DNA of 64,000 nt from Azolla caroliniana (Eukaryota > Plantae > Polypodiophyta), in contig JBHGNT010000009.1 of NCBI GenBank assembly GCA_043228905.1, positions 4,898,001-4,962,000 of the forward strand, in the 5' to 3' direction. The notes below the pieces were generated by a model. The model saw only the letters and a list, made by a program, of their open reading frames with translations. It searched no databases and was not told where the DNA came from. Both the position numbers and the translations under genes were made by a program. This document shows, in pieces, positions 10,626 to 63,903 of the stretch (the first letter of the stretch is position 1; each line of letters starts with the position of its first letter).

Positions 10626-11070
10626 TAACAATCGGCAACGGTTCGAGACTGTAAAAACCAAGCTGTTTAAAAATTTTGAAACTTAAACCGAACCGAACCA
10701 TGAAACCATTTTAACTTAACTGTTACAAAAAATCCAAATCGTTAAACCATTAAACCGTTTAAACTGCGGTTTCATGGATTGGTTTCGATTTTCAAGTTAG
10801 GTTAAAATTCAAAAATTTCAAATATTTAAAGTTTTTTCCTAAAATGTGAGAATTAAGCTTTAAAATGAAAAGGTTGTTTAAAAAAATATTTTAAAAATCA
10901 ACTAAACAAACAAATCGTTTTAACCGAACCGAACTGTTTAAACCATCAAGCTGTTAAGTCGTGATTTCACGGTTCGATTTGAACTGAACCATTAAAAAAC
11001 ACTTGAACTTGAACCGAACTATTTAAACTGTCACGTCGTTAAGTTGTGTTTTTGCGGTTGCCAATTGTTA
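10626..11070. mobile_element. MITE, hAT-like, related in architecture to 1825-2395
   Basis: Imperfect TIRs TAACAATCGGCAAC / GTTGCCAATTGTTA. Many AACCG(AACCG)/CGGTT subterminal motifs. No clean TSD seen. Confidence 0.7.
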
Positions 11071-11087
11071 GGCTTAAGACAACAAAA

Positions 11088-11160
11088 AGGTATAGCTCAA
11101 TCGGCAAGAAATTATGCCTTCAAAATAAAAAAGGTCAAAGAGTTCGAATAATGTGGAGGC
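11088..11160 (+). other. tRNA-derived (SINE-head-like) Pol III cassette
   Basis: A-box TAGCTCAATCGG (11093-11104) and B-box-like AGTTCGAATAA (11141-11151). I see no convincing cloverleaf. Confidence 0.55.
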
Positions 11161-12474
11161 AATGAGAACAGATGGACATGATGATTGACTTTTTGCTCAC
11201 ACCAAGCGCCCTGAGTGTTTATGTATGTTTGGATATATGCGCGGAAGTATGTGTATGAGGACCTATCTTTCTATGCACAACAAACAACACAGATATGAAG
11301 TGATAAGAAGAAGAAGAAGATAGATGCAATAAATACAATTAGAGCTTCAAAAGTTCTCTATTTCTCTGTAACTCTCTCTCTACAAGACAAAAGATCGATC
11401 ATACTCGTTACAATGTTAGATTAGAGTTTATATACTCAAACCCTAACTATTTGGACGTGTTCACACTTGTATGGATACAAAGTGGAAGGAGTCAACGTTT
11501 TATGCCAACAAACTCTCATGTAAAAGGACTACTCTTTCTTATGTATACAAATGATTGGGGTTATCTCCCCCGTAAACCTAGATTACAAGTCTAATCTATA
11601 GGTACATATATACAAGCTAGGTTGTCGGCATGTAACCGAAGTTGTAGAGGTAAAGTCGGTTTTCAACCTGATTCGGCTGATTGTCCAAATTGGAGTTGGC
11701 TTGTCGAAACCGCTCGGATTGACTATACAGGTCGACTTTCCACCTGAGTCGGCTCGTTCGGTCGGTCGGCTCGTATCCAATTCCGACTCTCGTCCTCTAC
11801 CCGATCGTCTATTCTCCACTCATACTTGCTCCTGTGCTCTCTGCTAGATTCTCGGTCTGTCTTCCGACTTGTTCATCCCTCGATTGTTTCTTCTCTAGTC
11901 GGTGTCCTTGCTTAGTGCGACATATTTGATCTCTCGATATTCCGACTTTGCAGACTTTGATCCTGCATCTCGTTTGATCCGGTCAGTTTTTGACTTACCT
12001 TTTGCACTGTGTTCGGCTTTCTTTTGCTTTGTCGCTTGTCATAGTCACATTTTTGTCCTCAGTGCTTTGAAGTGTTGATATGGGAGTGGCTTTGTCAGGC
12101 AATCGGCAATGTTCACCTCAGTGTCGATCTTCCAGACTTCAAATTTTTTTTTGGTTACTAGCTCTCGTATGTGATGATACTGCACATCAATATGCTTTTT
12201 CTTCACATGATAGACATGATTATTGATAAGGTGTATTGCACTCTGTGAGTCGCAGTAGATGCTTGGTGCTAGGTGGTCGATTCGGCTCGTAGCTAAGAAG
12301 TCGGCAGTCAGTTGGTGCAGCCAGATCACTTCCTTCACTGCCTCCGATGTTGCTATGTACTTAGCCTGTGTGGTAGATAGAGTCATGCACTCTTGAAGCT
12401 TCGACCTCCATGATATGACACTGCAACCATAGGTGAAGATGTAGCCTTATGTTGACTTCCGATTATTCAGATTC

Positions 12475-13020
12475 TGTCGTGACTCTTGAGTAGGAAGCAG
12501 AGAGAGAGCGATGGCGATAGAGATAACGATAACGATAGAGATGGCGAGAGCGGTAGAGATAGCGATAGTGATAGCAAAAGAGAGTGAAAGAGGGAGAGAG
12601 TGCGAGAGAGAGAAAAGTATAAGTGAGAGATAAGAAATGGGAATGAGATTATATTATGAGAAAGAAGATTACAAGGAGTAGGCTAAGGGCTAAAGACTGG
12701 TGTTGAACCGAATGAGTTGTGATGAGTGTATGGACTCTTATTTATAGGCCCTTATGGAGTATTCTAGAATGTTCTAGAATATTTTAGATATTTATGAATA
12801 ATAATAATAATAAATATAATCATGAAATATTCAAGAACATTCTAGAATAATCTAGAATGTTCTAAATATCTCGTAATAACTAAACATATAATTATAATGT
12901 CATGAAGACATACATCTTGGCTTATCATGACATTCATCTTGGCGAACCAGGAATCGAACCCATAACCTCTTGGTTTACATATTGTACTTTAACCATTGTA
13001 ATAACATATGTGAGATGTAA
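12475..13020 (-). mobile_element. Truncated LTR-like segment from a second family
   Basis: Starts TGTCGTGA exactly where the copia RNase H breaks. Contains GA-rich tracts, a TATA on the minus strand (TATTTATAGG near 12740), TTCTAGAA repeats and the hairpin AATGTCATGA..TCATGACATT. Joins gypsy RT at about 13020. Confidence 0.55.
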
Positions 13021-16000
13021 TCATAATAAGATCGTCAGCTCGGGGGCAATGGATATGAATTCTTGATTGCCATTTTATTTAGGCGTTGGTAATTAATACA
13101 CATACGCCATGTGCCCTCTTACTTTTTTTACCAAGAGAACAGGTGCACCCCAAGGAGATTTACTATAATGTATATAAACCATTCGTAAATAGTCCTTGAG
13201 TTGCTTAGATACCTCATCCTCTTCGGATTGACTTAAGCGATAAGGAGGTATACTTATTGGTGCAATGCCAGGTACAATATCCATACAATGGTCTATATTA
13301 CGTTTAGGAGGTAACCCATGTGGTAGTTCACTTGGAAAAACATCAGGAAAATCATTTAAGATTTCATCGAGTTGTTGTTCAAAATATGATAATTGAACCG
13401 AGACATTATCAATATTGTAAACGTGAATGTCCAGATCAAGTACACAATAAAATAAAGTAGAACCAGACAACTCAGATATTGATGGTGAGGAAACAATCGA
13501 AAGAGATTGTTTTTTAACACATTGAATTAAATGAGTACAATCGTTCAGTACAAAAGTAATTGAATGATGAACCCAATCAATAGATAAAAGAAGAGTTTTT
13601 ATTAAAAACCAGGGATAACCCAGTATTACCTCAGTGGTACAAAGATTCATTACATGGAAGTCTACTTCCTCTATATAAGTATCAATTGAAATTCCTAATG
13701 AATGAATCACCCCATTGATGTATTATACTCTTCCATTAGCCAAGTGCACCCTATAGACTAGATCACTTACGGTGGGTTGGATTCCCCATATTTGAACCAA
13801 ACGATCATTCACAAAATTGTGTGAGCTTCCTGAATCAAATAAAAATTGTACGGGAGATCCATTGATATACTCGTTTGCACGTAGTAAATCATTGGGTCCC
13901 ACCCAATACATAGTGAGGGAAAGAACATTGACAATTACTTAAATGATGTGTATAGACGTCAAGGACATTAGGAATGTGACCTTTATGGTCTACAACTTTT
14001 GCTTTGTTGTCGTGCTCTTTCTGTTGGAGCTTTCAACATTGTTCTTTTGTATGACCCTTCTTTTTGCAGAATACGCAAAAAGGATGTTGTCGTTTACAAT
14101 CGCGATCCATGAATTCGTTAGGTGTCTTGCGTTTCCCAACGAATTGCGACTGCTTAGTCCCGAGCGCTTCGTTGGGTTTGTTATGGTCCTTCTTCGAAAT
14201 GTGTTGATAGCAAAGAACTATTTAAACGGCCTCTTCGAAGGATTTTGGATCCTTATCGTGCACTATCCAGTGATAGTCCGAATTGGGGATGCCATTGACA
14301 AAACAAGCTATTAACCAATTGTCCCCTTCTAGACCCGATTTTTGGATTTGGGTTCTAGCATGGTGGACATAGTCTTCTAACAAGGAAAACTTCCTACTAG
14401 AGAGGTTCATTAAAGCTTGTGTTGCCTCGGTTCGAGAGGGAGGTTGTAGAAATTGGCTCTTGAAAACTATGACAAAATCTGTCTAGGTATTGGGCAATTT
14501 CCCCAAAGTTCGGAGCCCACGTCGCCAGGCGGCGGCCTTACCCCCTAGTTCTCGATCGACATATGCAATCTTCGTACTATTTGGCGTGGGATAGAGCTCA
14601 AAGTGAGACTCCCATCGGCCCAACCACGTGCAGATTGCTTCTTCGGTTCTTTCCTTTTTTTCTCTCGCAAATGGCTTTACGACAAATGATGGTTCACCCT
14701 GACGCTCATCGGGTCTATTAGTGTCCCGTTGTAAACTAATGGCACCTGCCTCGTGAGCACTTTGAGGTTGCTGAAGTTCTGACATCTGATGCACGGTTGA
14801 ACTAAGGAAATGTTGTATTTGTAAAAAATACGACTCAATGGACATTGGTCCAGGAGGATTTCCTTGAGTTCCTAACCTCAAGTCTCAAGTCTCATAATTA
14901 CGATGTTGGTATGTTACCTAACCTCAAGTCTCATAATTACGATGGCATACGCCAAAGTGCAACCTAATGTTCAAGCCAAATGAGCCCTCTTTTCGTAGTA
15001 GGCCCACGTGACCCATCACATGGTTATGTCATTACAAATGCCTTTTGTAAGAATGATCTCATGGTGGGATCGTATCCATGTAATGAGGGAGGGATGTTGG
15101 ATATGTGTGTCATTGGAGCGACCTCACATGAAGTGGGTCAAGCCCTACGTTCTCAACATCATTGTGGCTATGAGCATTTTGTTACATAACGAAATCGAAG
15201 TGACCAATGGGGATGTCAACAAAAAAAATTGTTGAAAAAAGGATGGTGACTACGCCATTCTCACAAAAATGTGAGTACAGACACCAAGATCCTTTCCTTG
15301 AATATACACATGTGATATAGAAATCACGTAATAACTAATATACACATATGATATAGAAATCACATAATAACTAATATACACATATGTATATTTATCACAT
15401 ACATACGATCAAATACGTATACATGTGACCACATATGCGTATATTAAAAAAAATCGTAACATCAAATAGCCAACAAATAATGAAATCGTGACACGTATTC
15501 GAGGTATATAGCCTCTACGCACACGAAATATCCAAAAATAAGGGTTAATCGTAATACGCAATTGAGGTAATGAACTCTTACGCATATGACACCAAACACA
15601 TATCATTTACATAAACATCGAGGTATTGACCTCATACGCATACGTAACATATGTATGTGAACGTAATACGCAATTGAGGTATTAACCTCGTACGCATACG
15701 ACACAAATCACATATCAAATATATGTCAAATGAGGTATTGACCTCACACACATATATAAACGTTTTATGTAACGAATTAATTACCACTACAACATCATTG
15801 AATCAATGGAAAAAATTACATATTAACCATACACATGATTAGATTGGGAGAAGAAAGAATAGGAAAAAAAACAAGAAAGAGTTACCGAAGTTCCTTTGCT
15901 TATTGCTATCTGGACCAAGGTCGACCGCACATCGATCAATCACCATCCATCAAGAAGACAAAAAACCACAAAAGAAACATTAGAAACATGAGCTTTGAAA

Positions 16001-17100
16001 CCAACTGTTAGAGTGATGGTCTAATGTTAGCATATGATAAGGATATAAGATATAAGAAATAAGAAAGGTGAGAGAGAAAGAAGGGCGTCGATCCACCCGA
16101 CCACCCTCGAGCGAAGGAATCAAGACGGACTCGAGCCTCGATCGGCGTCCCATACCACCGTCGTGGCGTCAAGTCGTACCTGTTGCTGGCGCGTTCGCTA
16201 CAAGAGTCGACCCACCACAATGTTAGAGTCTCGATGTAGTCAAAAGATGATGAAATGAGGGTAGTTAGGCCTCATATTTATAGCGATACCCAAGGCCCCC
16301 AGGCAATTTCACACTTGGCCTAACGGGTTGTCTCAATCCCGAGGATTAAAAGTAATCCTCCCCTTCTTTACACTCTCATTTAACCCTCACACTTATCCAC
16401 ATTGTCGTGATGTGGCGTGTTTAATGTGAGAAAAAGTGAAAAATTGAGGATACATGCACATTACACAAATACTTGTAAAACTGAAAATAATAATAAATAA
16501 ACCTAAGACATGATGGCACTGAGTGCATATTGAGGGTTGCAAGTAGGATTTGAACTTTGCACGTCTAAGATAAGAAGCAATTATCATACCACTAAAGCTA
16601 CTACTACATGCTGTACATTTTGTATATTTGCTTTTCATATTTAGTATTTCATAGGTAGCAAACAGTCAAAACCGTGTACACAAAACCATGGTTTCAAGCC
16701 CATGGTTTTGTCCATGTCATAAGCAAAACCGTGTGCACAAAACCATGGTTTTAGCCCATGGTTTTGTGCATGTCACAAGCATGGAGAGACCTATAAAAGC
16801 CTCTAGTAAGGCTTGTGTAAGGGGGGGCTCAATATGTGATATTATCATCATCATCACTATCACCGTCAATATAATAATCTTCTTCTTATTATTCTTTTTT
16901 ATCTTCTTCTCAAGTGTAAAAATTTCCGATCTTCTCAAGTGTAGTGGTCATTGTTTTCTCAAATCTTACATTCACATCGTCCTCTTCTCAATAAGTCCCA
17001 TTCAAGCGAAGCACACACACACGTGCATCTTCGCGACAACGTGTATAGAATACTACGGTAAATTCTCACCACGGGATATTATATGGTCATGCCCGTAACA
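13021..17100 (-). mobile_element. Ty3/gypsy 5' half (LTR, PBS, gag, protease, start of RT), pseudogenised
   Basis: LTR 16006-17100 (TGTTA...TAACA). Degenerate PBS GCTTTGAAACCA at 15992-16003. gag 14881-14222 (LGGKAAAW). Protease LFDSGSSHNFV at about 13830. RT start PYRLS...SKSPWGAPVLLVKK...KNSYPLP at 13240-13040. Confidence 0.85.
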
Positions 17101-20100
17101 TATACGGAGCCTATCGTAGGTCGGCTATTTGTCTAACCATAGTGCCTGTGGCACTTCGAGCCTTATTGGATCATTCAGCTGATCCGTTCAACTACTCCAT
17201 TCTACATGGGTGTGTATGGATCCCTCTATTAGACAAGTACTGTTTGAAGTCTCGGGAGGTTTATTCACCTCCGTTGTCGGATCTAAGTCTCTTCACTCGG
17301 TATCCCGACCGATTCTCCACTTCAACTAACCATCGAGCGAAGATTTTGAGTGCGTCGTCTTTGAACCTAATTGAATAGGCCCAGACCTTCCGTGTACAAT
17401 CATCGACAAAAGTGATGAAGTACCAAGAGCCACCTAGTGATCTTTTAGGAAACAACCCACATATGTCTATATGGATTAGTTCTAGGGGTTGTCATACCAT
17501 CTCATAATGGAAAGAGTGCAGGCTTCTTGTCTATTTCCCCTATCGACAATGCTCGCATAAGTTTGTCTTTGTCAAGAGTTTCGGAATGTAACTGACCGCC
17601 ATTAGCTGGTCCAGTCCGGCTTGAGACATATGACTGAGTCGGCCATGCCATAAATTCGGGTTGGTCGAATTGGCTACGTGCATGACCCCGTCTGGATTGA
17701 TCGCCATTATTGGATACAAGTTGTTGTACTTGTGTCCGCTTCGGATCTTCACATTTCCTCGGTTGATCATCCATGTCAACTCATTGAGAATTGTTCGGTA
17801 CTCGTCTTCAGCTAACATGCTGATGGAGACCAGACTCCTTTTTAGTGCAGGTACGTGCCAGACTTGGTGCATGAATATTTTGTTGCCATTCGACAATTCG
17901 ATCAGTACTTCGCTGATTCCGGTGATTTTGCATTCCTGCCCGTTGCCTAGTCAGATTGTGCCATTGGCGTCGGTCGAATAATTCGAGAACCATTCGATGT
18001 TCGAGGTTACGTGAAATGTGGCACTGGAGTCCAGTAATCACGTGTGTGCTTATTGCTCACTATAGAGGACTTCTTCGATCATCGAGTCCTCTAAAGAGAG
18101 GATTTCTTCTGATCGAGAGTCGGCAACATTGATTTGATTGTTGATTGGAGAGCGATTCGAGTCGGATCGTCCTTGGTTCCACTTGGATCACCAATCGCTC
18201 TCTTTTTTCTTGATCGACCAACAATCGGAAACGTTGTGACCGACTTTTCTACAATGAGTGCAAAAATCACATGGTCGGTTATTTCTTGACTTTGACTGTT
18301 GTCAGTCTCTCCTCTTTCTCGATCGATTGTTGTTTCAACCGGAGCGTTCGGCTTGTTCTCTTGATCGACTCGATCGAGTGATGGGCTTCTGCCGACTTGT
18401 CGATGGTTGAGTCCCATCGATTTTTGCCGAATATCCTCCGTGAGGATTTGGCCAATAGTTTCGTCCAGGTTCAGCCTAGGGTTGTTAATGGCGAAAGTCA
18501 TGTAGAATACCTCCCAACTCATCGGCAAGCTCAATAGGAGAGCAAGGCTTTCACTTCTTCTTCAAAGTTGATCCCTTGGGAGGAGAGTTCAAACAACACC
18601 CGACTGAAGGTGTTGATGTGAGAGGTGGCTAGATCGGTCTCTCTCATCTTCATGTTGAATAGTTGTTTGATAAGTATCGGTTTTGAAGATGAGGACTTGT
18701 TTTCATATACCACATTTAACTTCTCTCACAACAAGAATGTTGTTGTCTCCTTTGCCATATTGAAGTAGACGTTTTCGGCCAAGTGCATTCGATTGGTGGA
18801 GCGTACAATCTTGTCTATTGATCTCCACTCTTCGGCTGAAATTGAAGCAGGTCTTTCGCTGTGTCGAATGGCTTCAACCTGTCTTCGAATGATCAACACG
18901 TCTTGCATCATCTCCTTCCATAGGGCAAAGTTTTTGTCGTCGAACTTTCGGATTTCAACTCCTGTTCCAGATGTTGAAGCCATGTTCTTTTGAAGTGAGA
19001 TTGCTAACCTGGTCTATTCTTTCAGCTGTGGAGTTTCCTTTTCTTGGTTTTTCTACTATTTGTCACCGTTGAACAACAAGTCGCTCTGATACCACTTGTT
19101 GATGTATGTTCAGATATATGCACGGAAGTATGTGTATGAGGACCTATCTTTCTATGCACAACAAACAACACAAATATGTAGTGATAAGAAGAAGAAGAAG
19201 ACAGATGTAGTAAACAGAGTTAGAGCTTCAATGGAAGCTCTCTATTTCTCTATAACTCTCTCTCTACAAGATTCAAGATTGATCATACTCATCACAATGT
19301 TCGGTTAGAGTTTATCTACTCAAGCCCTAACTATTTGCATGTGTTCACACTTGTATGGATACAAAGTGGAAGGAGTCGGCCTTTTCTGCCAACACTAAGG
19401 GGATAAGTATGGATGCATGCAAAAGGGAAAAAACAAAGTGCAAGTTAAAAGTAGGCTTTACAATTTTCATTTGGAAGAGACCCTCGAATAGCCTATAAAA
19501 GGGACAAGAGAGCTCATTGGCATGGATCATTTTTTTTTGCATAAGACAAAAGCACTTACCAAATTTTGGATTGGGCTCGAAAAAGTGAATCAAGCAAGCA
19601 TGCAAGACCAATGACGACAAAAGTTGACATGGTCGTCATCCATTGGGACGTTGTACCAAAACTGAAGGATTTTCTCTTGAAGCTCTTTTCTCAAATCTAA
19701 TACTACTTTTGTCTTATTTATTTGTAATATAAGCCATTTCATGTAACAGAGTTGAGACTTTGTCTCGTTAGTATTTCAAGATGTTAATACCTATAAAAAA
19801 CTGTTTTGGTAATCCCATTGTCTTACATACATTGCAAGGGAACGAGGATCGCTACGAATTTTTAGCTCGGAAATCTAAGCACAATGCTCGAAGAGACTCG
19901 AATTGAGCAAATTCCACGAAAGATGGATTCCAAAAATTCGCACTGAAAGTTTCTTAATGTAGACATGAAGAGGTCCCTAGAAGAATTGTGGCAGAATTTT
20001 CGAAATGTGAATCCAAGCTCGAACAAAAGTTACAAGTGCAATATTGATTTTCGGATTGAACTAGCCAAGTTGAACAAGGTCAGCATCTAACGTGAAAGCA

Positions 20101-20779
20101 CTACTTTTGAAAATTTGGGAAAACATTTCCCTGATTTGAGCATCACTTCACGAAATGAGGAAATTAATATTTTCGCCATCGCGAACTCTACATCGTCGAC
20201 CACTACCGCTACATTTGACAATGACGACATTGACACCAATGCCGACCTTGCTATAGGTGATGTTTGTTGACATCTTTTATTAGCTACGTCACTTGCCACA
20301 CTTACATTCCCTTTACACTTTAAGAAAAACCTTAAGACCTTACCCACAAGCACTTAAACCATTCTTATTTTCCCAAACATGCCTCCTACCTACCAACACA
20401 TTAAAACATGCATATATATACCCATACAAACATTGAAGAGAATACTTGTAAACACACACATTAGTATTTAGAACTCACATACATGCACATATACCCCCCA
20501 TTGCATATCAAGATTCACCAAACAAGCACATTATTTTACACATATAAAACACACTAGAATTATAAACACTTAAGAGTTGCACATTTACACACACCTCTTT
20601 GGTTCGAGTTCCTGGTGGTCCCATTCACATTTCAAACACATGTACATATTCTCACGACAGTGATTTGTGCAACATGACCTCGAGAAGGAGATAGAACTTA
20701 GATCAAGAGAAAGACGTGTGCTAGGTGCAACTTTCTTAGAAGTGACACAAAGTTCTCTATTGCCCTCAAATTGAGTAAA

Positions 20780-22300
20780 TAGGGCACAAACCATAAGGAG
20801 GAATGCATGCAACAAACACTACCCAAGGGCATTGGGAACTTACGATAATTTGAACTCACTACAAGTACTAGTCACCTTAATGGATAGGGACAACGATAAT
20901 GCCACCACCTTTGAGATCAATCGATGACCATGGTAAGTACACAAAATCACATGTATAATAAGGATGATGGCTTTCAAGGTCATGCTTGATGATAAAGTTA
21001 GGGTATGGTCCTTGAATCTCCCAAAAAAAGACTTACATAAATGGCAAAGATTCCATGACAGGCTTACAAGTACCAACCCAAGTCCCAACTAACAAATGCG
21101 AGAATTTCCCTGAACCTACACAAGACCCAACACCAATACCTCATGTGGAACAACCCAAAGCCTACACAACAAGGGAAAACATTTGTTTTCCTACATGTCA
21201 AGGATATCACACAAGATATGAATTCCCCCTCTTACACCAAAGACAACCCCACTATTGCAAATGGTGCAAGGCCTTCTTGATGCAGTCACAAGAAAACTCG
21301 TCGCAAGCACCCATTAGGAGGTTCGAACAAGGACTTGTAATCGAACGCTCAAGGTGACCACCATGACCAAACCATCTAACCCAACTTGCCATGCTACCAC
21401 AACAACCACCACTCCCTCAAATCAAAACCTGACTACCATAACTTGAACACGATAGAGATAAACAAACCCAAGTTCGGGTGGGGGCATAAAACAACCATGA
21501 GAGCTAATACCAATACGATGACGACGATGCTGACAAAGAAGTATTGTCTCACTTCATCAATTACGAAGGTGACCAAATACTAGTCTACATCCTAAGAAGT
21601 GAACAACGAGAACCCCCAATGGGATACATAGGATGCCCAAGATGACACAACCTCAAATGCTTCAAATGCCAAGGTTCACATATGGTCAGTGAGTGCCCCA
21701 CTAAGCATGAGTACTACAATTGCATGACACAATGACCAAGGTACAACCAACAGGATGCACTAGTACCTGCACAAGCATTAAACCCCTTTGACCAACAAGC
21801 ACAAGAGGTTATCACTTGGTTCCACGAGAAGCTTCATGCCTCGCATTTGGACGAGAACACCTAGTGCCTGACTGCCCCGAGAAAAAAAAGAGAATCGTAG
21901 CGGGTCTATTATCAATTGTCCCATCCATAATTGGAGCCAATGTTATCATGCGCTCATGCCCAAAGGATTGCGCACAATCTCAAACATCAAGAGAATGGGA
22001 CACAAACTACCCATCATAGGAAGAGGAAACCAAAAAAGATCAAATTAGAGGAGTACATTAAGCTACTTCATCAAGAAGAGGAACAAACACCACCAAATCT
22101 ACTGAGCTTGAACTTGAACCAACTCAACAATTCCTCCCTACCAAAATAAGGTACCCATTGAGGGACATACCCCCGCCACAATGACCAACTCCTTCCCTAT
22201 GACTAGCAACAAGAAGTTAACGTGGAGCTCTTGCAACAAATACTAACACTCAAGGTGCAACTCACGTCACTAGAGTTGTATGACTCGATAGGTGTCCTCA
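20780..22300 (+). mobile_element. Old, degenerate gypsy-like gag remnant
   Basis: CCHC zinc knuckle CFKCQGSHMVSECP (~21658-21700) and a decayed second knuckle CLAFGREHLVPDCP (~21837). Many stops; boundaries uncertain. Confidence 0.5.
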
Positions 22301-23471
22301 CAAAAATCGATTGTTTTAACCACATTCTATCTAAGAAGGTTTTAACCGCCCATCTACATCACTCTTTCCTTTATCGCTATTATTTCATCCTTACTCTTCA
22401 ACTTTAAATGATAAAGCTTCATCACTAAAACTTTTGTTCATCAAAAGCATCAACGTGTAGAAACCCCCACTTATTTCATCTCTCTCTTTTATATGACCGT
22501 TGTGGCCCTTCCCTCTAGTTATACCTCTCTTCACTTTCACAACATAGCCCAATTTGGTGCCCTTTGATTTTGTATACCACCTTGCCTCTTTCTTATTTTC
22601 CATTGTATTGGTTTAACATCTTCTTTACATCCATTGGAGTTTATATGTATAATGTTCCTCTACCCTCTATACTCCTAAATGATAACCGTCCTACATCCCT
22701 ACATTCTCATATTTAATCTTCTCAACCCCCTCTTTTCTTCCCTTGTACTTTCAAAAGGCTTCTTCCTAGAACCATTACATCCTTTCTTTCACATGCATGA
22801 ATGTTCCTTGGGAATCTTATGACCCTTCCCACATTTACTCTTTGAAGTTAAAAACCCTCACTACAAGGTGCCTCCCTTTTTTAAACTTGCACCTTCACCC
22901 TTTTTTACTATGTATGAGTTACCCTTTTATTGGGGTGAAATTGGTTTACATGTAAGCATCTTGTGTATATATGTAAACCAATTGACTCCTAATTTCAATA
23001 ATAAGTGCTCATTATAAAAGCCTCTCTCCCTCTATCTCAAACTCTGATGCAACTAGGAAAGTCTTTCATTATTTTTTGGCATTGCTTGTATTAGACGAGT
23101 GTGGAATACTTGTGATTTTGAAATTTTAAAAGAAACTATATTTGTTGAAGTTCCAAAAACCCCAATTCAAAATTTGCATCGAGAGAGGCTGTTGATGACC
23201 AAGTATTAACCAACCACCTTCACATTCATTGTGGCTTACAATATCCATGAAAACCTCATATTTGTTCACTAAATGACTAGGATAGAAGGGTTATTCTAAG
23301 GTATGCATTTTACAAGTTCATCTAAAATAATACATTGCTCTCCAAAAGGTTATTTACTATGGCTCATTTTTTACTCTTCACTTCTTGATAGGAGAAAGGA
23401 TTGTGGCTACACAACACATAAGAAATGATATTTCATTTGCTTCCAGTACAAAATCCATTCAAATCAACTTC

Positions 23472-25945
23472 TCAATTTTGGTTTGCAATTTTGTCACATT
23501 GAAAATTCAAGTCAAGACCTAATCTTAAGTCAATACGCGAGGAACAATACGACGACATATTTTGAGGCCCCATTGGTTTGGATATACTTAACTGATTAGA
23601 CATGCATATAGCAGTATGCATTGCTTGTTTTGATAGAGGTTTTGTCTCATTTGCCTCGTTAGAGACTAGTAATCTATCACTAAGAAATGTTCTCTTATCC
23701 ATTAACTCATTGTCATCAATAACTTGTGCATATGGCAATCCCCTCTCAAATCCTCTTGTTGTTGAGACTAATCGCCTATCAACAAACCCTCTCTTATGTG
23801 CACTAACTTGTTCCATTAACCTCAAACCTCCCATTCCAACATCCTCATCCTCATCCTCATCTTGCACTTGGATTTCCTCTTTATACTTGAGCATCATCAT
23901 CCCAACTGATTCCTGATCCCCAACCAAATCTCCTCTATATTTCTTCTCTAATCCTCCATTTTCTTCGGTTTCATACCTCTCTTTTGAGATCACATTAGTG
24001 ATGGAGCTGTCAAAGGAGCATTCTGTCTTTATGTGAGATTCACATTCATCCATTGCACCACATTTCGAAAAGTCGTCCATACAAACTTCTTTGTTGGTTA
24101 TATCCAGAAGCCGTGCTTGGTCCATCCCAACAAGTCCGAGTGTTTTAGTGGCCAAATTTTCTTCGGCTTTTCTAAGTATAGAATGCAGGTACCTCCCCTG
24201 AGCCTCAATACGAGCTTGTAAAAGTCGTTGCACCTATATGTTAAAAACTTGTCAATATATTACAATGTATTTTAAAAAGAAGAAAGAAAATGATATCCTA
24301 ATCATTAGGGGAAACCACCGAAATAGCCCTAGTGGTTTTTTGATAGTTACCAAAATACCATCAAGTAGCAGCAAATTTCCTACTATTGATGGTAGTTAGT
24401 AAAATTTGAAAATTTTCATAGGAGGTATTTTCATGTTTTGCACTATATCTTTATCTTGAGGTTGTAACCTCTAGTTGTTCTTGAAGCTTCCTTTGTACCT
24501 CCATTTGAATGTGCAAAGCTTCGGCTATTTGTACGTTTCTGAAACCCAAGAAAAGACACACTTTCTCATGATATCCTTTGAACAAAAGAACGGAAACTAT
24601 GGTACAAAAGGGGAGGAGATTGGCCTAGTGGTTGTATGGGGCATTTCAGTCTGTAAAATCCCTATGTTGGGAGAGATCAAACTTCCCCTTCCATCAAGTT
24701 TGGTTGTGGCAAATTGGAATTGAGTACCACCATTAAAAGAAGGAGAAAGCACCCAAAATTTACAAGATTTTCATACTTACTCGGATGTTGCTTGGTTTTC
24801 TGAACCTGTCGTGATTGTTATTGAAGGTTTTATATTCTCGTTAGCTCCTGTACCTTGCACATTTATATGTAACCATTGCGATATCTTTCATAAGTCCACC
24901 AAATTAAGCGGTCTATAAAAGAAAGAGTGCTCAGCTAGATTTTATTCTCACCAGAGAAATGCTCAATCTTAGTATTAGGTTCTTTCGAATGCTTTCCAAG
25001 GCGATATTTCTGACAGTCAAATCAAAGAACTGATTAGGGACATAGTTATAACAAGAAGCAAAAGAAACTCCACATCCAATCATCAAGCTCAAAAGAAATA
25101 TTTCCTATGTTCCATCATCAAACTCAAAAGAATCATTTCCTATATTCATTCATCAGATGGTGAGTTTATTCCTTGAGCTCAGGAAAATTTTGATAACTGA
25201 TTTATTCCAAAGGCTTTTCTGTGCAAGCTTAAGCTTGGTTTAACATCTTATCTTTTCTTCAATGGACAAGTCTATCATCTATATGATTGATTAAACACCC
25301 ATGAATAGGTGCCTATGTAGGGAGGTAATGGAACTCAAATCCCACCTGGTAAGAAGCTATTGATTGATTGTCTCATTAATATTATGTTTGTTCATTTCCT
25401 GTCCTATTAGACTTTAGTAGCAGACACATATATATAGCAATTTTTATAGGTCACAGACCTCCTGAGGACTGTAATATGTCATCATCGTTCTCTTTCTCTC
25501 CCATGTAACAAGACTGTCGGTTAAACGCATGAATTGTTACCTGAAGATGACTTTTCAAATGGTATAGTGTGAGCCCTTTGATATTCATAACTTTCATCAC
25601 AGCCTTTGGTGTAGCCTCTGCATGCACAAACCTAGACAATCTCAGCACTGGATATGCATCCATGGAAACCACAAAATCCACCATCTACACAATTTTAGCC
25701 ATTATGATTGGCATCATCAGATATGCATCCATGTAAAACAAAACACACTTACTGCCAGCTCCTCCAAGTTGATGAACAGCTTCGACAAATCGTTCATGAA
25801 GTTCAGCAGTCCATCGGAGGCGAGGTTTCGGGTCAGTTGAGAGGATTACCCCACCAACATCAAAATCATTTGTTCCATGTAAATGTGAGAAAGTAAAGGA
25901 CCTTCGTGTATCCGAATAAGTACCATATGAATCAATATGAGTCAT
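23472..25945 (-). CDS. MYB-CC / PHR1-like (GARP SHAQKYF-class) transcription factor; exons 25945-25753, 25617-25541, 25009-24952, 24847(or 24853)-24781, 24538-24469, 24233-23472
   Basis: DPKPRLRWTAELHERFVEAVHQLGG / KATPKAVMKVMNIKGLTLYHLKSHLQ / KYRLGK. The coiled coil reads QIAEALHIQMEVQRKLQEQLE-VQRLLQARIEAQGRYL. Introns are GT-AG with consistent phases. The start codon is uncertain because in-frame upstream ATGs exist. Confidence 0.92.
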
Positions 25946-52220: not shown

Positions 52221-52271
52221 GATCAAGATAAAAAAGACCAAATATGAGAGAGGGAGAGAGAGCGAGAGAGA

Positions 52272-52460
52272 TGGATGTAGCTCAGTTGGTAAGGTTGCCC
52301 AATGGAGACCAGGTGGTCATGGGTTCAACCCCTACATTCCATAGTGGCATCTAGTGAATTATGAGATATATAAGAAGTATATAATAGAGAGGTGAGGAAG
52401 TTGGGTTTTGAACCCACAACGCAGTGCTTGTAGTGCTAACAACTTACCACTAGGGTAAGG
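52272..52460. other. Convergent pair of tRNA-like cassettes inside a (GA)n tract
   Basis: Plus-strand cassette: A-box TAGCTCAGTTGG (52278-52289), B-box GGTTCAACCCC (52322-52332), acceptor-like GGATGTAG/CTACATTCC. Minus-strand cassette: A-box TACCCTAGTGG (52457-52447), B-box GGTTCAAAACC (52414-52404). Confidence 0.7.
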
Positions 52461-52498
52461 TAATTACGATTAAAAGAGAGAGAGAGAGAGTCACACAA

Positions 52499-61094: not shown

Positions 61095-62756
61095 GTGCTG
61101 GAATACATGAGAGTGGCAATGGTAGATGTCAAGGAGAGTGACTTGTCATGTAGCAATTCTATGTCTGAGAGGAGCAAGAGACGGGTGGTTCTTCACATAG
61201 TTCGTTATTTACTAGAAGTAATTGAGAGATTTACCAAGGAAGATCGTAGGGATATTATCTCTAGAGTGTTACACCATCAACTTTTGAATGAGTGCATGGA
61301 AAATATTAAGATTAGGGACCAATGTGTTTCAGAGGAGATTGTAGAGTCTATGAAGTCGTCACTACACTTAGTGAAAGGGGTAGAGAGCATAGATAAGCTT
61401 GGCGCAAAAAGAGCATCCCTTCACATGGTTGTAAATGGTACAACCAAAAACAAATATAGTGATACTAAAGTTGCCTTAGCCCTTGGTATTCAAAGAAGAA
61501 ACTTGAGGAAGCATCAGACAAATATACAGTCAAATCAATTTAAGTGGTTGGGGTTAGGCCGTAGACGACGATGTGATGCCTTGTCTCAAGAGATTGTTGA
61601 GAAAGTGGATTCCATTTGGACAAAAAACACTCATGTCTCACTGAATAAAAAAGATGTATGTAGACAACGTATAAGTCGGGGTAGGTACCAAATTCACCCA
61701 AGACACTTCTTGGAGATGACTAAGGTAATTCTTTTGTTTTTATCTATTTGTTTTTAAATATTTTTTGTATTAAAGGATTCTATTAACATTTGTTATTTAT
61801 TGAGTGATGTAGGCGGAATTGTTCATGAACTTCAAAGACCAACATCCTAACATCAATCTTGGATTTCGCAAGTTCCAAGGTTTGAAACTGTTTTTTGTTA
61901 GAAAGTTAAAAGAGAGGAACACATGTTGTTGTGTGTACCACATTAAAATGGACATGTTAAGGCTTGGCCTGAATAGTATGCGTACTGATTCTAAGGGTAT
62001 ACACGGGGATGGGTGTGTTTGCACTTGTGAGATATGTAGACCAAATGGGAGTGATAATAGATGTAATGCACGAAACACGACTTACGCATCAGTTTCTGTG
62101 ATATGGGGGTCTTTTGTTTGTGAAAAACAACCATCATCTGAGTGGCATAATCGTACATGTCTTCTAAGAACATGTAAAGTTTGCCCACAACCACCATTTT
62201 GTAGACAAGACCTTGATGTAGATAACTGTCATATTGTGAAATATTTAGAGTATGTGACAGAAAATATAGGTAAGGGTCTTGTTAGTAAGCGTATCAAGGA
62301 AGTATATAAGGAGACATGTGCTACTACCCTTGTCTCAGAATTTAAGAACCAACTCGAGGAGTTCATTCCACATAACTTTAGGAGTTATTGGCAAAATTCA
62401 CAGTTCAAGGAATGTATAAATAACTTACCACCAAATGTTATAGTATCCGTTATTGACTTTGCAGAGAACTATACGTTTAAAGTTCAAAATGAGGTTCAAT
62501 CAATGCATTGGTATAATGACCAATGTACAATACTTGTACATATTTGCTACTGGAGAAAAGACGTCGAGTTACATAAGAAATCAATATTCTACATTTCAGA
62601 TGATAAAAAGCACGATACACTATTTGTTCAACATTGTTTTAAGCTTCACCATGCAGATTAATTGTCCTTGGATGTTAACTTTAATCGGCATTGGGTTTGG
62701 TTTGATGGTGTTGCCTCACAATTTAAGGCGGCCCGGTCCTTCTACTTCATTGCAAG
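61095..62756 (+). pseudogene. DDD/E transposase pseudogene (exons ~61073-61723 and 61813-62756)
   Basis: RRRRCDAL and WTKNTHVS..KKDV in exon 1; intron GTAATT...ATGTAG at 61724-61812. Cys-rich TCCCVYH, then DFAENYTF..QNEVQSMHW, ISDDKKHD and HWVWFDGVASQFK. In-frame TAA at 62659-62661 and a GT donor after 62756. The Sola2 assignment is from recalled motifs only. Confidence 0.75.
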
Positions 62757-63633: not shown

Positions 63634-63903
63634 TACCAATGCATTGATTGAACCTCATTTTGAACTTTAAACGTATAGTTCTCTGCAAAGTCAATAACGG
63701 ATACTATAACATTTGGTGGTAAGTTATTTATACATTCCTTGAACTGTGAATTTTGCCAATAACTCCTAAAGTTATGTGGAATGAACTCCTCGAGTTGGTT
63801 CTTAAATTCTGAGACAAGGGTAGTAGCACATGTCTCCTTATATACTTCCTTGATACGCTTACTAACAAGACCCTTACCTATATTTTCTGTCACATACTCT
63901 AAA
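63634..63903 (-). repeat. Inverted duplicate of transposase segment 62244-62513 (270 bp)
   Basis: The reverse complement matches 62244-62513 with no mismatch that I could see. The ORF track shows the same peptide TENIGKG...QSMHWY on both strands. Confidence 0.95.

What the first reader, a model, noticed from the sequence alone, without database searches (positions are those of the whole stretch)
12940..16600. tRNA-like Pol III promoter cassettes at equivalent positions in two unrelated LTR-like sequences
Seen on the minus strand: cassette 1 has B-box GGTTCGATTCC (12960-12950), a weak A-box TTATTACAATGG (13004-12993) and ends ...TCGCCA. Cassette 2 has A-box TAGCTTTAGTGG (16600-16589) and B-box AGTTCAAATCC (16556-16546). 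Both have a 32-nt A-B spacing, as in tRNA genes. Both lie about 200-270 bp upstream of the LTR's TATA (near 12740 and 16278), in the same orientation as LTR transcription. Known: Cassandra TRIMs carry a 5S Pol III promoter in their LTRs, and TFIIIC-bound B-boxes can act as chromatin barriers. Inference: these LTR families may have captured tRNA-derived modules as Pol III promoters or as insulators against silencing.
Basis: partly seen in the sequence, partly recalled or inferred. Interest (0 to 1): 0.7.

Follow-up and report, generated by a model that had tools for sequence, protein, structure and literature searches.

The report
Backward tRNA-type promoters inside retrotransposon LTRs
Two abundant, dissimilar families of plant jumping genes each carry a tRNA-type promoter motif as a fixed, backward-facing part of their terminal repeat, where it likely acts as a landing site for the tRNA transcription factor that would help keep the element's own promoter open.

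Summary
Both A-box/B-box cassettes are real (4 in the window; shuffles mean 0.1, maximum 2) and are fixed parts of two multi-copy LTR families present in three related plant species, not one-off SINE insertions. Cassette 1 lies in the first ~130 bp of its LTR, a piece that is flipped in this copy. In both families the cassette sits in U3, antisense, with its A-box 172 and 192 bp from the LTR's own TATA. So it cannot drive the genomic RNA as in Cassandra or Helenus, whose cassettes read in sense in short TRIMs. Neither cassette folds as a tRNA. Best reading (0.45): captured tRNA-derived heads kept as TFIIIC docking sites back-to-back with the Pol II promoter; neutral hitch-hiking is the main rival (0.3). 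Box conservation is only suggestive (p 0.035 to 0.14). No expression or chromatin data. The scan noted antisense tRNA-like units in gypsy internal regions of two other genomes (unchecked), none in an LTR. New variant of a known kind.

The parts
12940..13010 (-). Cassette 1, tRNA-like head (edges approximate); antisense to its LTR in the abundant form of the family
12993..13003 (-). A-box of cassette 1 (one mismatch to the recalled consensus)
12950..12960 (-). B-box of cassette 1 (exact match to the recalled consensus)
12898..13029 (+). 5' piece of the family-1 LTR (begins TGTCATGA at 12898), inverted in this copy relative to the abundant form
   Evidence: opposite-strand joints 12891/13029 and 12895/13025, depth 9250 (X1) and 4358 (X4); contig of depth 9016 with 0 differences over 12898-13019
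12475..12895 (-). Rest of the family-1 LTR with TATAAA at 12746, pyrimidine-rich leader, ending TCACGACA
16403..17038 (+). Family-2 solo LTR, 636 bp, TGTCGTGA...TCGCGACA, TATAAA at 16792
   Evidence: (joints skipping about 641 bp in 4 of 4 runs)
16530..16607 (-). Cassette 2, tRNA-like head in U3 of the solo LTR, antisense (edges approximate)
16589..16600 (-). A-box of cassette 2
16546..16556 (-). B-box of cassette 2 (first base is a private variant of this copy)
16399..16402 (+). Left copy of the 4-bp target-site duplication (ACAT)
17039..17042 (+). Right copy of the 4-bp target-site duplication (ACGT)
16006..17100 (-). Very abundant host gypsy LTR, split by the solo LTR; TATAAA at 16282; PBS-like TGG from 16003; the start at 17100 is inferred from the terminal letters
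13030..14700 (-). Decayed gag-protease-start of RT of the host gypsy element, broken off at about 13030 (domains read by eye from the translation)
11216..19394 (-). Outer old copia element (LTRs 89% identical) into which all of the above is nested; its middle is missing
52271..52343 (+). Third tRNA-like head; its spacer resembles cassette 1 (possible relative of the donor)
52392..52464 (-). Fourth tRNA-like head, tail-to-tail with the third

Best explanation
Two dissimilar LTR families each carry a tRNA-type A-box/B-box cassette as a fixed, antisense part of U3, with the A-box 172 and 192 bp from the LTR's own TATA; the cassettes were likely captured from tRNA-derived SINE-like heads and are likely kept as TFIIIC (and perhaps TFIIIB/Pol III) docking sites that would hold the neighbouring Pol II promoter open against silencing. 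Shown: motifs, spacing, multi-copy linkage to both flanks, orientation, distances, loss of the tRNA fold. Inferred: origin from a SINE-like head (cassette 1 shares its spacer with the head at 52271); copying into every new LTR by normal reverse transcription of U3; factor binding; any effect on chromatin. Any Pol III transcript would be short and antisense (cassette 2: T-runs 59 and 103 nt past the B-box, still inside U3) and cannot be the genomic RNA.
For: Fixed part: one contig of depth 9016 (X1) or 4358 (X4) covers cassette 1 with 0 differences, about 150-370 times the low-depth contigs of the same runs (a rough copy estimate); depth over cassette-2 bins is 12,000-25,000 against 11,000-13,000 in its U3 flanks in X1, and an X4 contig of depth 112 spans cassette and both flanks; L001 is a second copy with both termini, 93% identical over 496 bp. 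Orientation: in L001 the LTR is followed by a PBS-like TGG and an ORF whose intact relatives resemble retrotransposon Gag; for family 1 a purine run precedes 12898 in 2 X4 contigs and the TATA lies downstream. Same geometry twice: A-box to TATA 172 and 192 bp, in 2 of the 4 LTR families between 11.2 and 19.4 kb, although the families are dissimilar and the cassettes share only 32 of 78 letters. Boxes and exact spacing are kept while the cloverleaf is lost. 9 of 9 listed between-species or between-subfamily variant sites in the cassettes fall outside the boxes, p = 0.035. TFIIIB/TFIIIC barrier function is described for yeast and animals (PMC9540200, passages) and TFIIIC-only sites exist (PMC4370569, passages).
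Against: Only two families. No RNA, ChIP or methylation data. The box test rests on truncated tables (40 of 75 and 40 of 212 rows shown) and falls to p = 0.14 if the window's private B-box variant at 16556 is counted. Window versus L001: 1 of 78 differences in the cassette against 14 of 311 in the rest of U3, p = 0.16, the one difference is in the B-box, the spacer is as conserved as the boxes, and L001 was found by a pattern that demands both boxes. The two heads at 52.3 kb show the same 'boxes kept, fold lost' pattern without a shown link to either family, so it may be inherited from the donor. The A-box of family 1 is imperfect in the abundant form. The TATA region of family 1 has about ten times the depth of the cassette region, so larger relatives may do without this cassette. 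The passages of PMC9540200 that I saw give no plant example of a tRNA or TFIIIC barrier.
Confidence: 0.45

Rival explanations
1. Neutral passengers: a tRNA-derived SINE head inserted backwards into U3 of a founder element in each family and has been copied along since, doing nothing.
For: Such heads are common here (4 in 64 kb); cassette 1 resembles the head at 52271 in the spacer (19 of 32 letters; local score reached by 2 of 300 shuffles); a T/TTA-rich run follows cassette 2 like a SINE tail; cassette conservation is not significantly above the rest of U3; family 1 is young (0 differences from the abundant form), so conservation may only reflect age. PMC10886601 says 'not a few LTRs' in Repbase hold tRNA-like pieces.
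Against: Two of four local LTR families show the same strand, region and distance to the TATA, which a random insertion at about 2 heads per 64 kb would seldom give (rough inference, not computed); listed variants avoid the boxes; no target-site duplication around either head was evident by eye.
Confidence: 0.3
2. The cassette is a working Pol III gene for a short antisense RNA against U3 (and the PPT) that tunes the element's own RNA level or silencing.
For: Both boxes and tRNA-like spacing are present; T4/T5 runs follow cassette 2 within U3, giving a predicted RNA of about 120-165 nt; the spacer of cassette 2 is as conserved as its boxes between two copies.
Against: No conserved fold; weak A-box in family 1; antisense RNA would more probably feed silencing than help the element (inference).
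Confidence: 0.15
3. One reading: Cassandra/Helenus-like Pol III promoters that drive the element's genomic RNA.
For: Fixed tRNA-like cassettes in LTRs with intact boxes.
Against: Both are antisense to the PBS/gag or PPT/TATA direction; the LTRs are about 549 and 636 bp and have their own TATA; family 2 continues into a long ORF.
Confidence: 0.04
4. Cassette 1 is one of this genome's 'tRNA end in place of the PPT' priming sites (earlier notes e1-10597625, e1-10618115, e1-10597906) or an extended PBS.
For: In the window's flipped arrangement a CCA stands 7 nt before a TGTCATGA.
Against: In the abundant form the cassette lies inside the LTR, about 43-113 nt from its start, and a purine run precedes the LTR; the letters before the CCA vary between species and the CCA lies in a local repeat.
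Confidence: 0.06

Closest known systems
Helenus / TRIMp3 (Kojima 2024, PMC10886601; read parts 1-4 of 6, passages, and 6 supplement passages)
   Same: tRNA-derived sequence fixed in both LTRs of a family, A- and B-boxes kept, not a functional tRNA, proposed origin by SINE2 insertion into an LTR, solo LTRs occur.
   Different: Helenus are TRIMs of 311-1263 bp in all, with LTRs up to 323 bp; in the LTRs I read by eye in the supplement (Helenus-1_SMo, LTR-1_PTrit, Helenus-8_PSt, Helenus-9_PSt, Helenus-2B_ToGe) the boxes read in sense towards the PBS. Here the cassette is antisense, in U3 of 549- and 636-bp LTRs that have a TATA, and family 2 runs on into a Gag-like ORF. The only plant Helenus listed is from Selaginella.
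Cassandra and Ajax (5S-derived promoter in LTRs; PMC10886601, and abstract of bioRxiv 10.1101/2023.07.14.548913)
   Same: Pol III internal promoter motif carried in an LTR.
   Different: 5S-type, TRIM, transcription runs from the 5' LTR through the element; here tRNA-type and pointing out of the element.
tRNA-derived SINE heads (SINE2)
   Same: A-box, 32-33-nt spacer, B-box, decayed cloverleaf; cassette 1 resembles a dispersed head at 52271.
   Different: Spread here by the LTR pathway as part of U3; no own target-site duplication seen; cassette 1 has no tail.
tDNA/TFIIIC barriers and ETC/COC sites (PMC9540200, PMC4370569; passages)
   Same: B-box-type sites next to chromatin borders; TFIIIC can bind without Pol III.
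   Different: Described for host loci of yeast and animals; here inside mobile LTRs of a plant, and untested.
Phygy-like non-chromovirus gypsy elements (PMC6317226; passages and section 9)
   Same: Family 2 has a 4-bp duplication that fits NCGN, the preference given for Phygy.
   Different: No RT or integrase of family 2 was obtained, so the clade is not established.

Membership tests
Helenus / TRIMp3 | tRNA-derived sequence with A- and B-boxes fixed in the LTR | tested here: met
   tRNA origin itself is inferred from boxes and spacing, Rfam gives no hit
Helenus / TRIMp3 | Short non-coding TRIM (about 300-1260 bp in all, LTR up to 323 bp) | tested here: not met
   LTRs of about 549 and 636 bp; L001 runs from the LTR into more than 800 bp with long ORFs. 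The internal region of family 1 was not seen.
Helenus / TRIMp3 | Pol III promoter in sense, able to transcribe the element | tested here: not met
   antisense in both families; sense in the Helenus LTRs read by eye
Helenus / TRIMp3 | PBS and PPT present, 4-5-bp target-site duplication | tested here: inconclusive
   family 2: PBS-like site and 4-bp duplication, PPT not seen; family 1: purine run before the LTR, PBS and duplication not seen
Cassandra / Ajax | 5S rRNA-derived sequence in the LTR | tested here: not met
   no 5S match in Rfam scans at E up to 5-10; motifs are of the tRNA type
Free tRNA-derived SINE insertion | Present in this copy only, with own duplication and tail | tested here: not met
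   depth continuous with flanks and contigs spanning both edges; second copy L001; exceptions: low-depth contigs in X4 and X5 skip 12925-12986
Functional tRNA gene | Cloverleaf recognised by a covariance model | tested here: not met
TFIIIC barrier / ETC-COC site | TFIIIC occupancy and a block to spreading of silent chromatin | not testable with these tools
   needs ChIP, accessibility and methylation data
TFIIIC barrier / ETC-COC site | B-box conserved above its surroundings | tested here: inconclusive
   p = 0.035 or 0.14 on truncated tables; p = 0.16 for two copies
Ty3/gypsy with Gag (family 2) | Gag ORF after the PBS | tested here: inconclusive
   ESM Atlas feature hits to Retrotrans_gag/Ty3_capsid at 0.90-0.94, a lead only; no Pfam gag hit; low-confidence model
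Phygy clade (family 2) | RT/RH/INT phylogeny; 4-bp NCGN duplication | not tested
   only the duplication fits; no pol sequence in hand

The most novel reading that the evidence does not exclude
Several protein-coding LTR retrotransposon lineages of this plant have convergently built a back-to-back Pol III/Pol II promoter: an antisense tRNA-derived cassette about one nucleosome upstream of the TATA recruits TFIIIC/TFIIIB and acts as a portable anti-silencing barrier that every new copy, and every solo LTR, carries into heterochromatin.
Probability: 0.25. Interest if true: 0.75.

Novelty: new variant of a known kind. Interest (0 to 1): 0.42.

Why it matters
If the cassettes bind TFIIIC, they give hundreds of near-identical natural test sites for an open question, whether tRNA-type promoters act as chromatin barriers in plants, and show a way for retrotransposons to resist silencing with a host housekeeping factor. 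They would also extend small-RNA-promoter capture from tiny TRIMs (Cassandra, Helenus) to long, TATA-bearing LTRs, in a role other than making the genomic RNA. If neutral, the result is an ordinary SINE relic and a caution for tRNA annotation in repeat-rich plant genomes.

Tried and rejected
No whole genome is held, so no copy census was possible. ARAGORN found 0 tRNAs in the window and in L001; Rfam gave no tRNA hit for cassettes 1 and 2 and 15 bits, E 1.7 for the head at 52271. Self-BLAST found no second copy of either LTR in the window. Pattern scans for family 1 found 0 loci in viral, metagenome and prokaryote contigs; the cassette-2 pattern found 0 in viral contigs and 1 in metagenome contigs. 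Protein-based locus searches found no relatives. No RNA holder listed. The Gag-like protein gave a poor model (mean pLDDT 39.6) and no clear fold match. Homology between the two LTR families was tested piece by piece and rejected (160 and 38 of 300 shuffles scored as high). My first reading, that cassette 1 lies outside the LTR before TGTCATGA at 12932, was rejected. (bacterial promoter scan) was irrelevant. Look-ups of earlier notes near this place or by sequence gave nothing. Seven paper searches listed no report of antisense tRNA-type cassettes in U3 of plant LTRs; the library lacks most subscription journals, Repbase reports were not searched, and I saw only 6 passages of the Helenus supplement, which may hold antisense cases. 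Whether the flipped arrangement at 12895/12898 and 13029 is bridged by contigs could not be read from the cut tables.
Full report
Observation. The window is land-plant DNA (NPH3 and MYB-CC genes). Using recalled consensus motifs (exact B-box, at most one A-box mismatch, gap 24-60), the window holds 4 cassettes, all with gaps of 32-33 nt; 200 dinucleotide shuffles gave mean 0.105, maximum 2. The four align without gaps from A-box to B-box. Cassettes 1 and 2 are not tRNA genes: ARAGORN 0, no Rfam tRNA match at E up to 10, folding z-scores +1.4 and +0.1.

Surroundings. An old copia element (19394-11216, LTRs 89% identical) is interrupted in its integrase by a gypsy element (LTR ending 16006, PBS-like site, decayed gag-protease-start of RT, read by eye), which breaks off at about 13030; copia RNase H resumes at 12474. 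No genome is held, so I laid the contigs of 4 of the 22 listed runs (X1 and X4, organism A; X5, organism B; X10, organism C) on each cassette.

Cassette 1. One contig of depth 9016 in X1 covers 12898-13019 with 0 differences, and one of depth 4358 in X4 reads 12898-13025 on the + strand and then 12895-12768 on the minus strand. The same opposite-strand joint appears in 4 of 4 runs (in X5 only at depth 17). Against the low-depth contigs of those runs this is roughly 150-370-fold (the tool warns that depth is no copy number). A purine run precedes 12894 in 2 X4 contigs. So the abundant form is an LTR of about 549 bp that starts with TGTCATGA at 12898, carries the cassette backwards (B-box at LTR position 53-63, A-box 96-106), has its TATA at position 278 and ends in TCACGACA at 12475. 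The window's copy has the first ~130 bp flipped, which is why the cassette looked to be in sense. Low-depth contigs in X4 and X5 skip 12925-12986 and so lack the B-box; these are the only listed exceptions. The 'CCA' lies in a short unit repeated at the LTR's 5' end and the two letters at 12944-12945 differ in much of the X5 and X10 depth.

Cassette 2. Many contigs in 4 of 4 runs skip about 641 bp between 16398 and 17040. The insert is 16403-17038, bounded by TGTCGTGA and TCGCGACA and by ACAT/ACGT: a solo LTR with a 4-bp duplication inside a far more abundant host LTR. Depth over the cassette (12,000-25,000 in X1) is continuous with its flanks (11,000-13,000), and an X4 contig of depth 112 spans 16482-16648. 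A metagenome scan gave one locus, L001, a second copy with both termini, 93% identical over 496 bp, followed by a PBS-like TGG and long ORFs. Twelve intact relatives of that ORF (399-719 aa) resemble retrotransposon Gag by language-model features (0.90-0.94), a lead that Pfam and folding did not confirm. This fixes the LTR's sense as the window's + strand: cassette 2 is antisense in U3 (B-box position 144-154, A-box 187-198, TATA 390).

Common design. The two LTRs share no detectable similarity and their cassettes 32 of 78 letters, yet both are antisense, in U3, with the A-box 172 and 192 bp from the TATA. Two of the four LTR families between 11.2 and 19.4 kb have this; the strict scan found none in the copia or host LTRs. 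Cassette 1 resembles the head at 52271 in its spacer (19 of 32; 2 of 300 shuffles as high), which points to a dispersed tRNA-derived donor.

Conservation. Of the variant sites listed by the read tables that separate species or subfamilies, 6 of 6 in cassette 1 and 3 of 3 in cassette 2 lie outside the boxes (p = 0.035); I left out 16556, a B-box variant private to the window's copy (26040 of 26520 depth in X1 differ from it); with it p = 0.14. The tables showed 40 of 75 and 40 of 212 rows. Window versus L001: 1 of 78 against 14 of 311 differences, p = 0.16, and L001 was selected for intact boxes. Selection on the boxes is suggested, not shown.

How it most likely works. U3 is copied into both LTRs at each round of reverse transcription (established), so an insertion there spreads with the lineage. 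An antisense cassette cannot make the genomic RNA. I infer that it is kept as a TFIIIC site whose upstream TFIIIB footprint would face the Pol II TATA about one nucleosome away, holding the promoter open (0.45). TFIIIB/TFIIIC barriers are described in yeast and animals (PMC9540200, passages), and TFIIIC-only sites in fission yeast (PMC4370569, passages); I saw no plant case there. Rivals: neutral passenger (0.3), short antisense Pol III RNA (0.15; T-runs 59 and 103 nt past the B-box of cassette 2), second priming site (0.06), sense promoter (0.04).

Known systems. The closest is Helenus (PMC10886601; parts 1-4 of 6 read; passages; 6 supplement passages): TRIMs with tRNA-like LTR sequence, in sense in the LTRs I read by eye, LTRs up to 323 bp, one plant family. 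These families fail its size and orientation features, so they are not Helenus, though they share its likely origin. That paper also notes that 'not a few' Repbase LTRs hold tRNA-like pieces and analysed only TRIMs, so such relics are not unprecedented. Cassandra is 5S-type (same paper; abstract of bioRxiv 10.1101/2023.07.14.548913). The 4-bp NCGN-like duplication of family 2 fits Phygy (PMC6317226, passages and section 9), untested. Seven searches (listings only, apart from the papers named) showed no report of this antisense U3 design. Earlier scan notes describe antisense tRNA-like units in gypsy internal regions of two other genomes and tRNA ends replacing the PPT in this genome; all are unchecked, and the latter does not fit cassette 1.

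Verdict. New variant of a known kind; interest 0.42.

Noticed in passing
window 12475-13029: A copy identical to the abundant young form of family 1 over 122 and 124 bp has its first ~130 bp inverted, with a 4-letter microhomology at the joint, and sits at the junction of a truncated gypsy RT and copia RNase H: likely an aberrant integration or repair event with a large deletion; misassembly not excluded.
   Followed up: partly
window 52271-52464: Two tRNA-like heads tail-to-tail, about 50 bp apart, between (GA)n runs; the first gets 15 bits on the Rfam tRNA model (E 1.7) and resembles cassette 1. Context unresolved.
   Followed up: partly
window 12898-12932: The family-1 LTR starts with a 35-nt hairpin bounded by TGTCATGA and TCATGACA (z -2.2), i.e. 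a second terminus-like motif inside the LTR.
   Followed up: partly
window 16841-17010 versus L001:860-1040: Between two family-2 copies U3 differs by about 4% but U5 by 76 of 170 positions: possible subfamily recombination.
   Followed up: no
window 16660-16790: Tandem, partly palindromic ~50-bp units (CCATGG-containing) just upstream of the family-2 TATA, with much higher depth than the cassette region and variable copy number: shared with other subfamilies.
   Followed up: no
L001:1-843 and proteins P0001-P0012: Gag-like ORF family of 400-720 aa found only in unnamed ENA records, with a long low-complexity tail, no Pfam hit, and no protease evident in the same frame of the three sequences read; may be gag-only elements.
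   Followed up: partly
window 62244-62513 and 63634-63903: Perfect 270-nt inverted repeats 1120 nt apart enclosing two tandem arrays (41-nt and 25-nt units): a very young foldback or TIR element.
   Followed up: no
window 16399-16402, 17039-17042: The 4-bp target site of the solo LTR fits NCGN, suggesting CpG-directed integration as reported for Phygy.
   Followed up: partly
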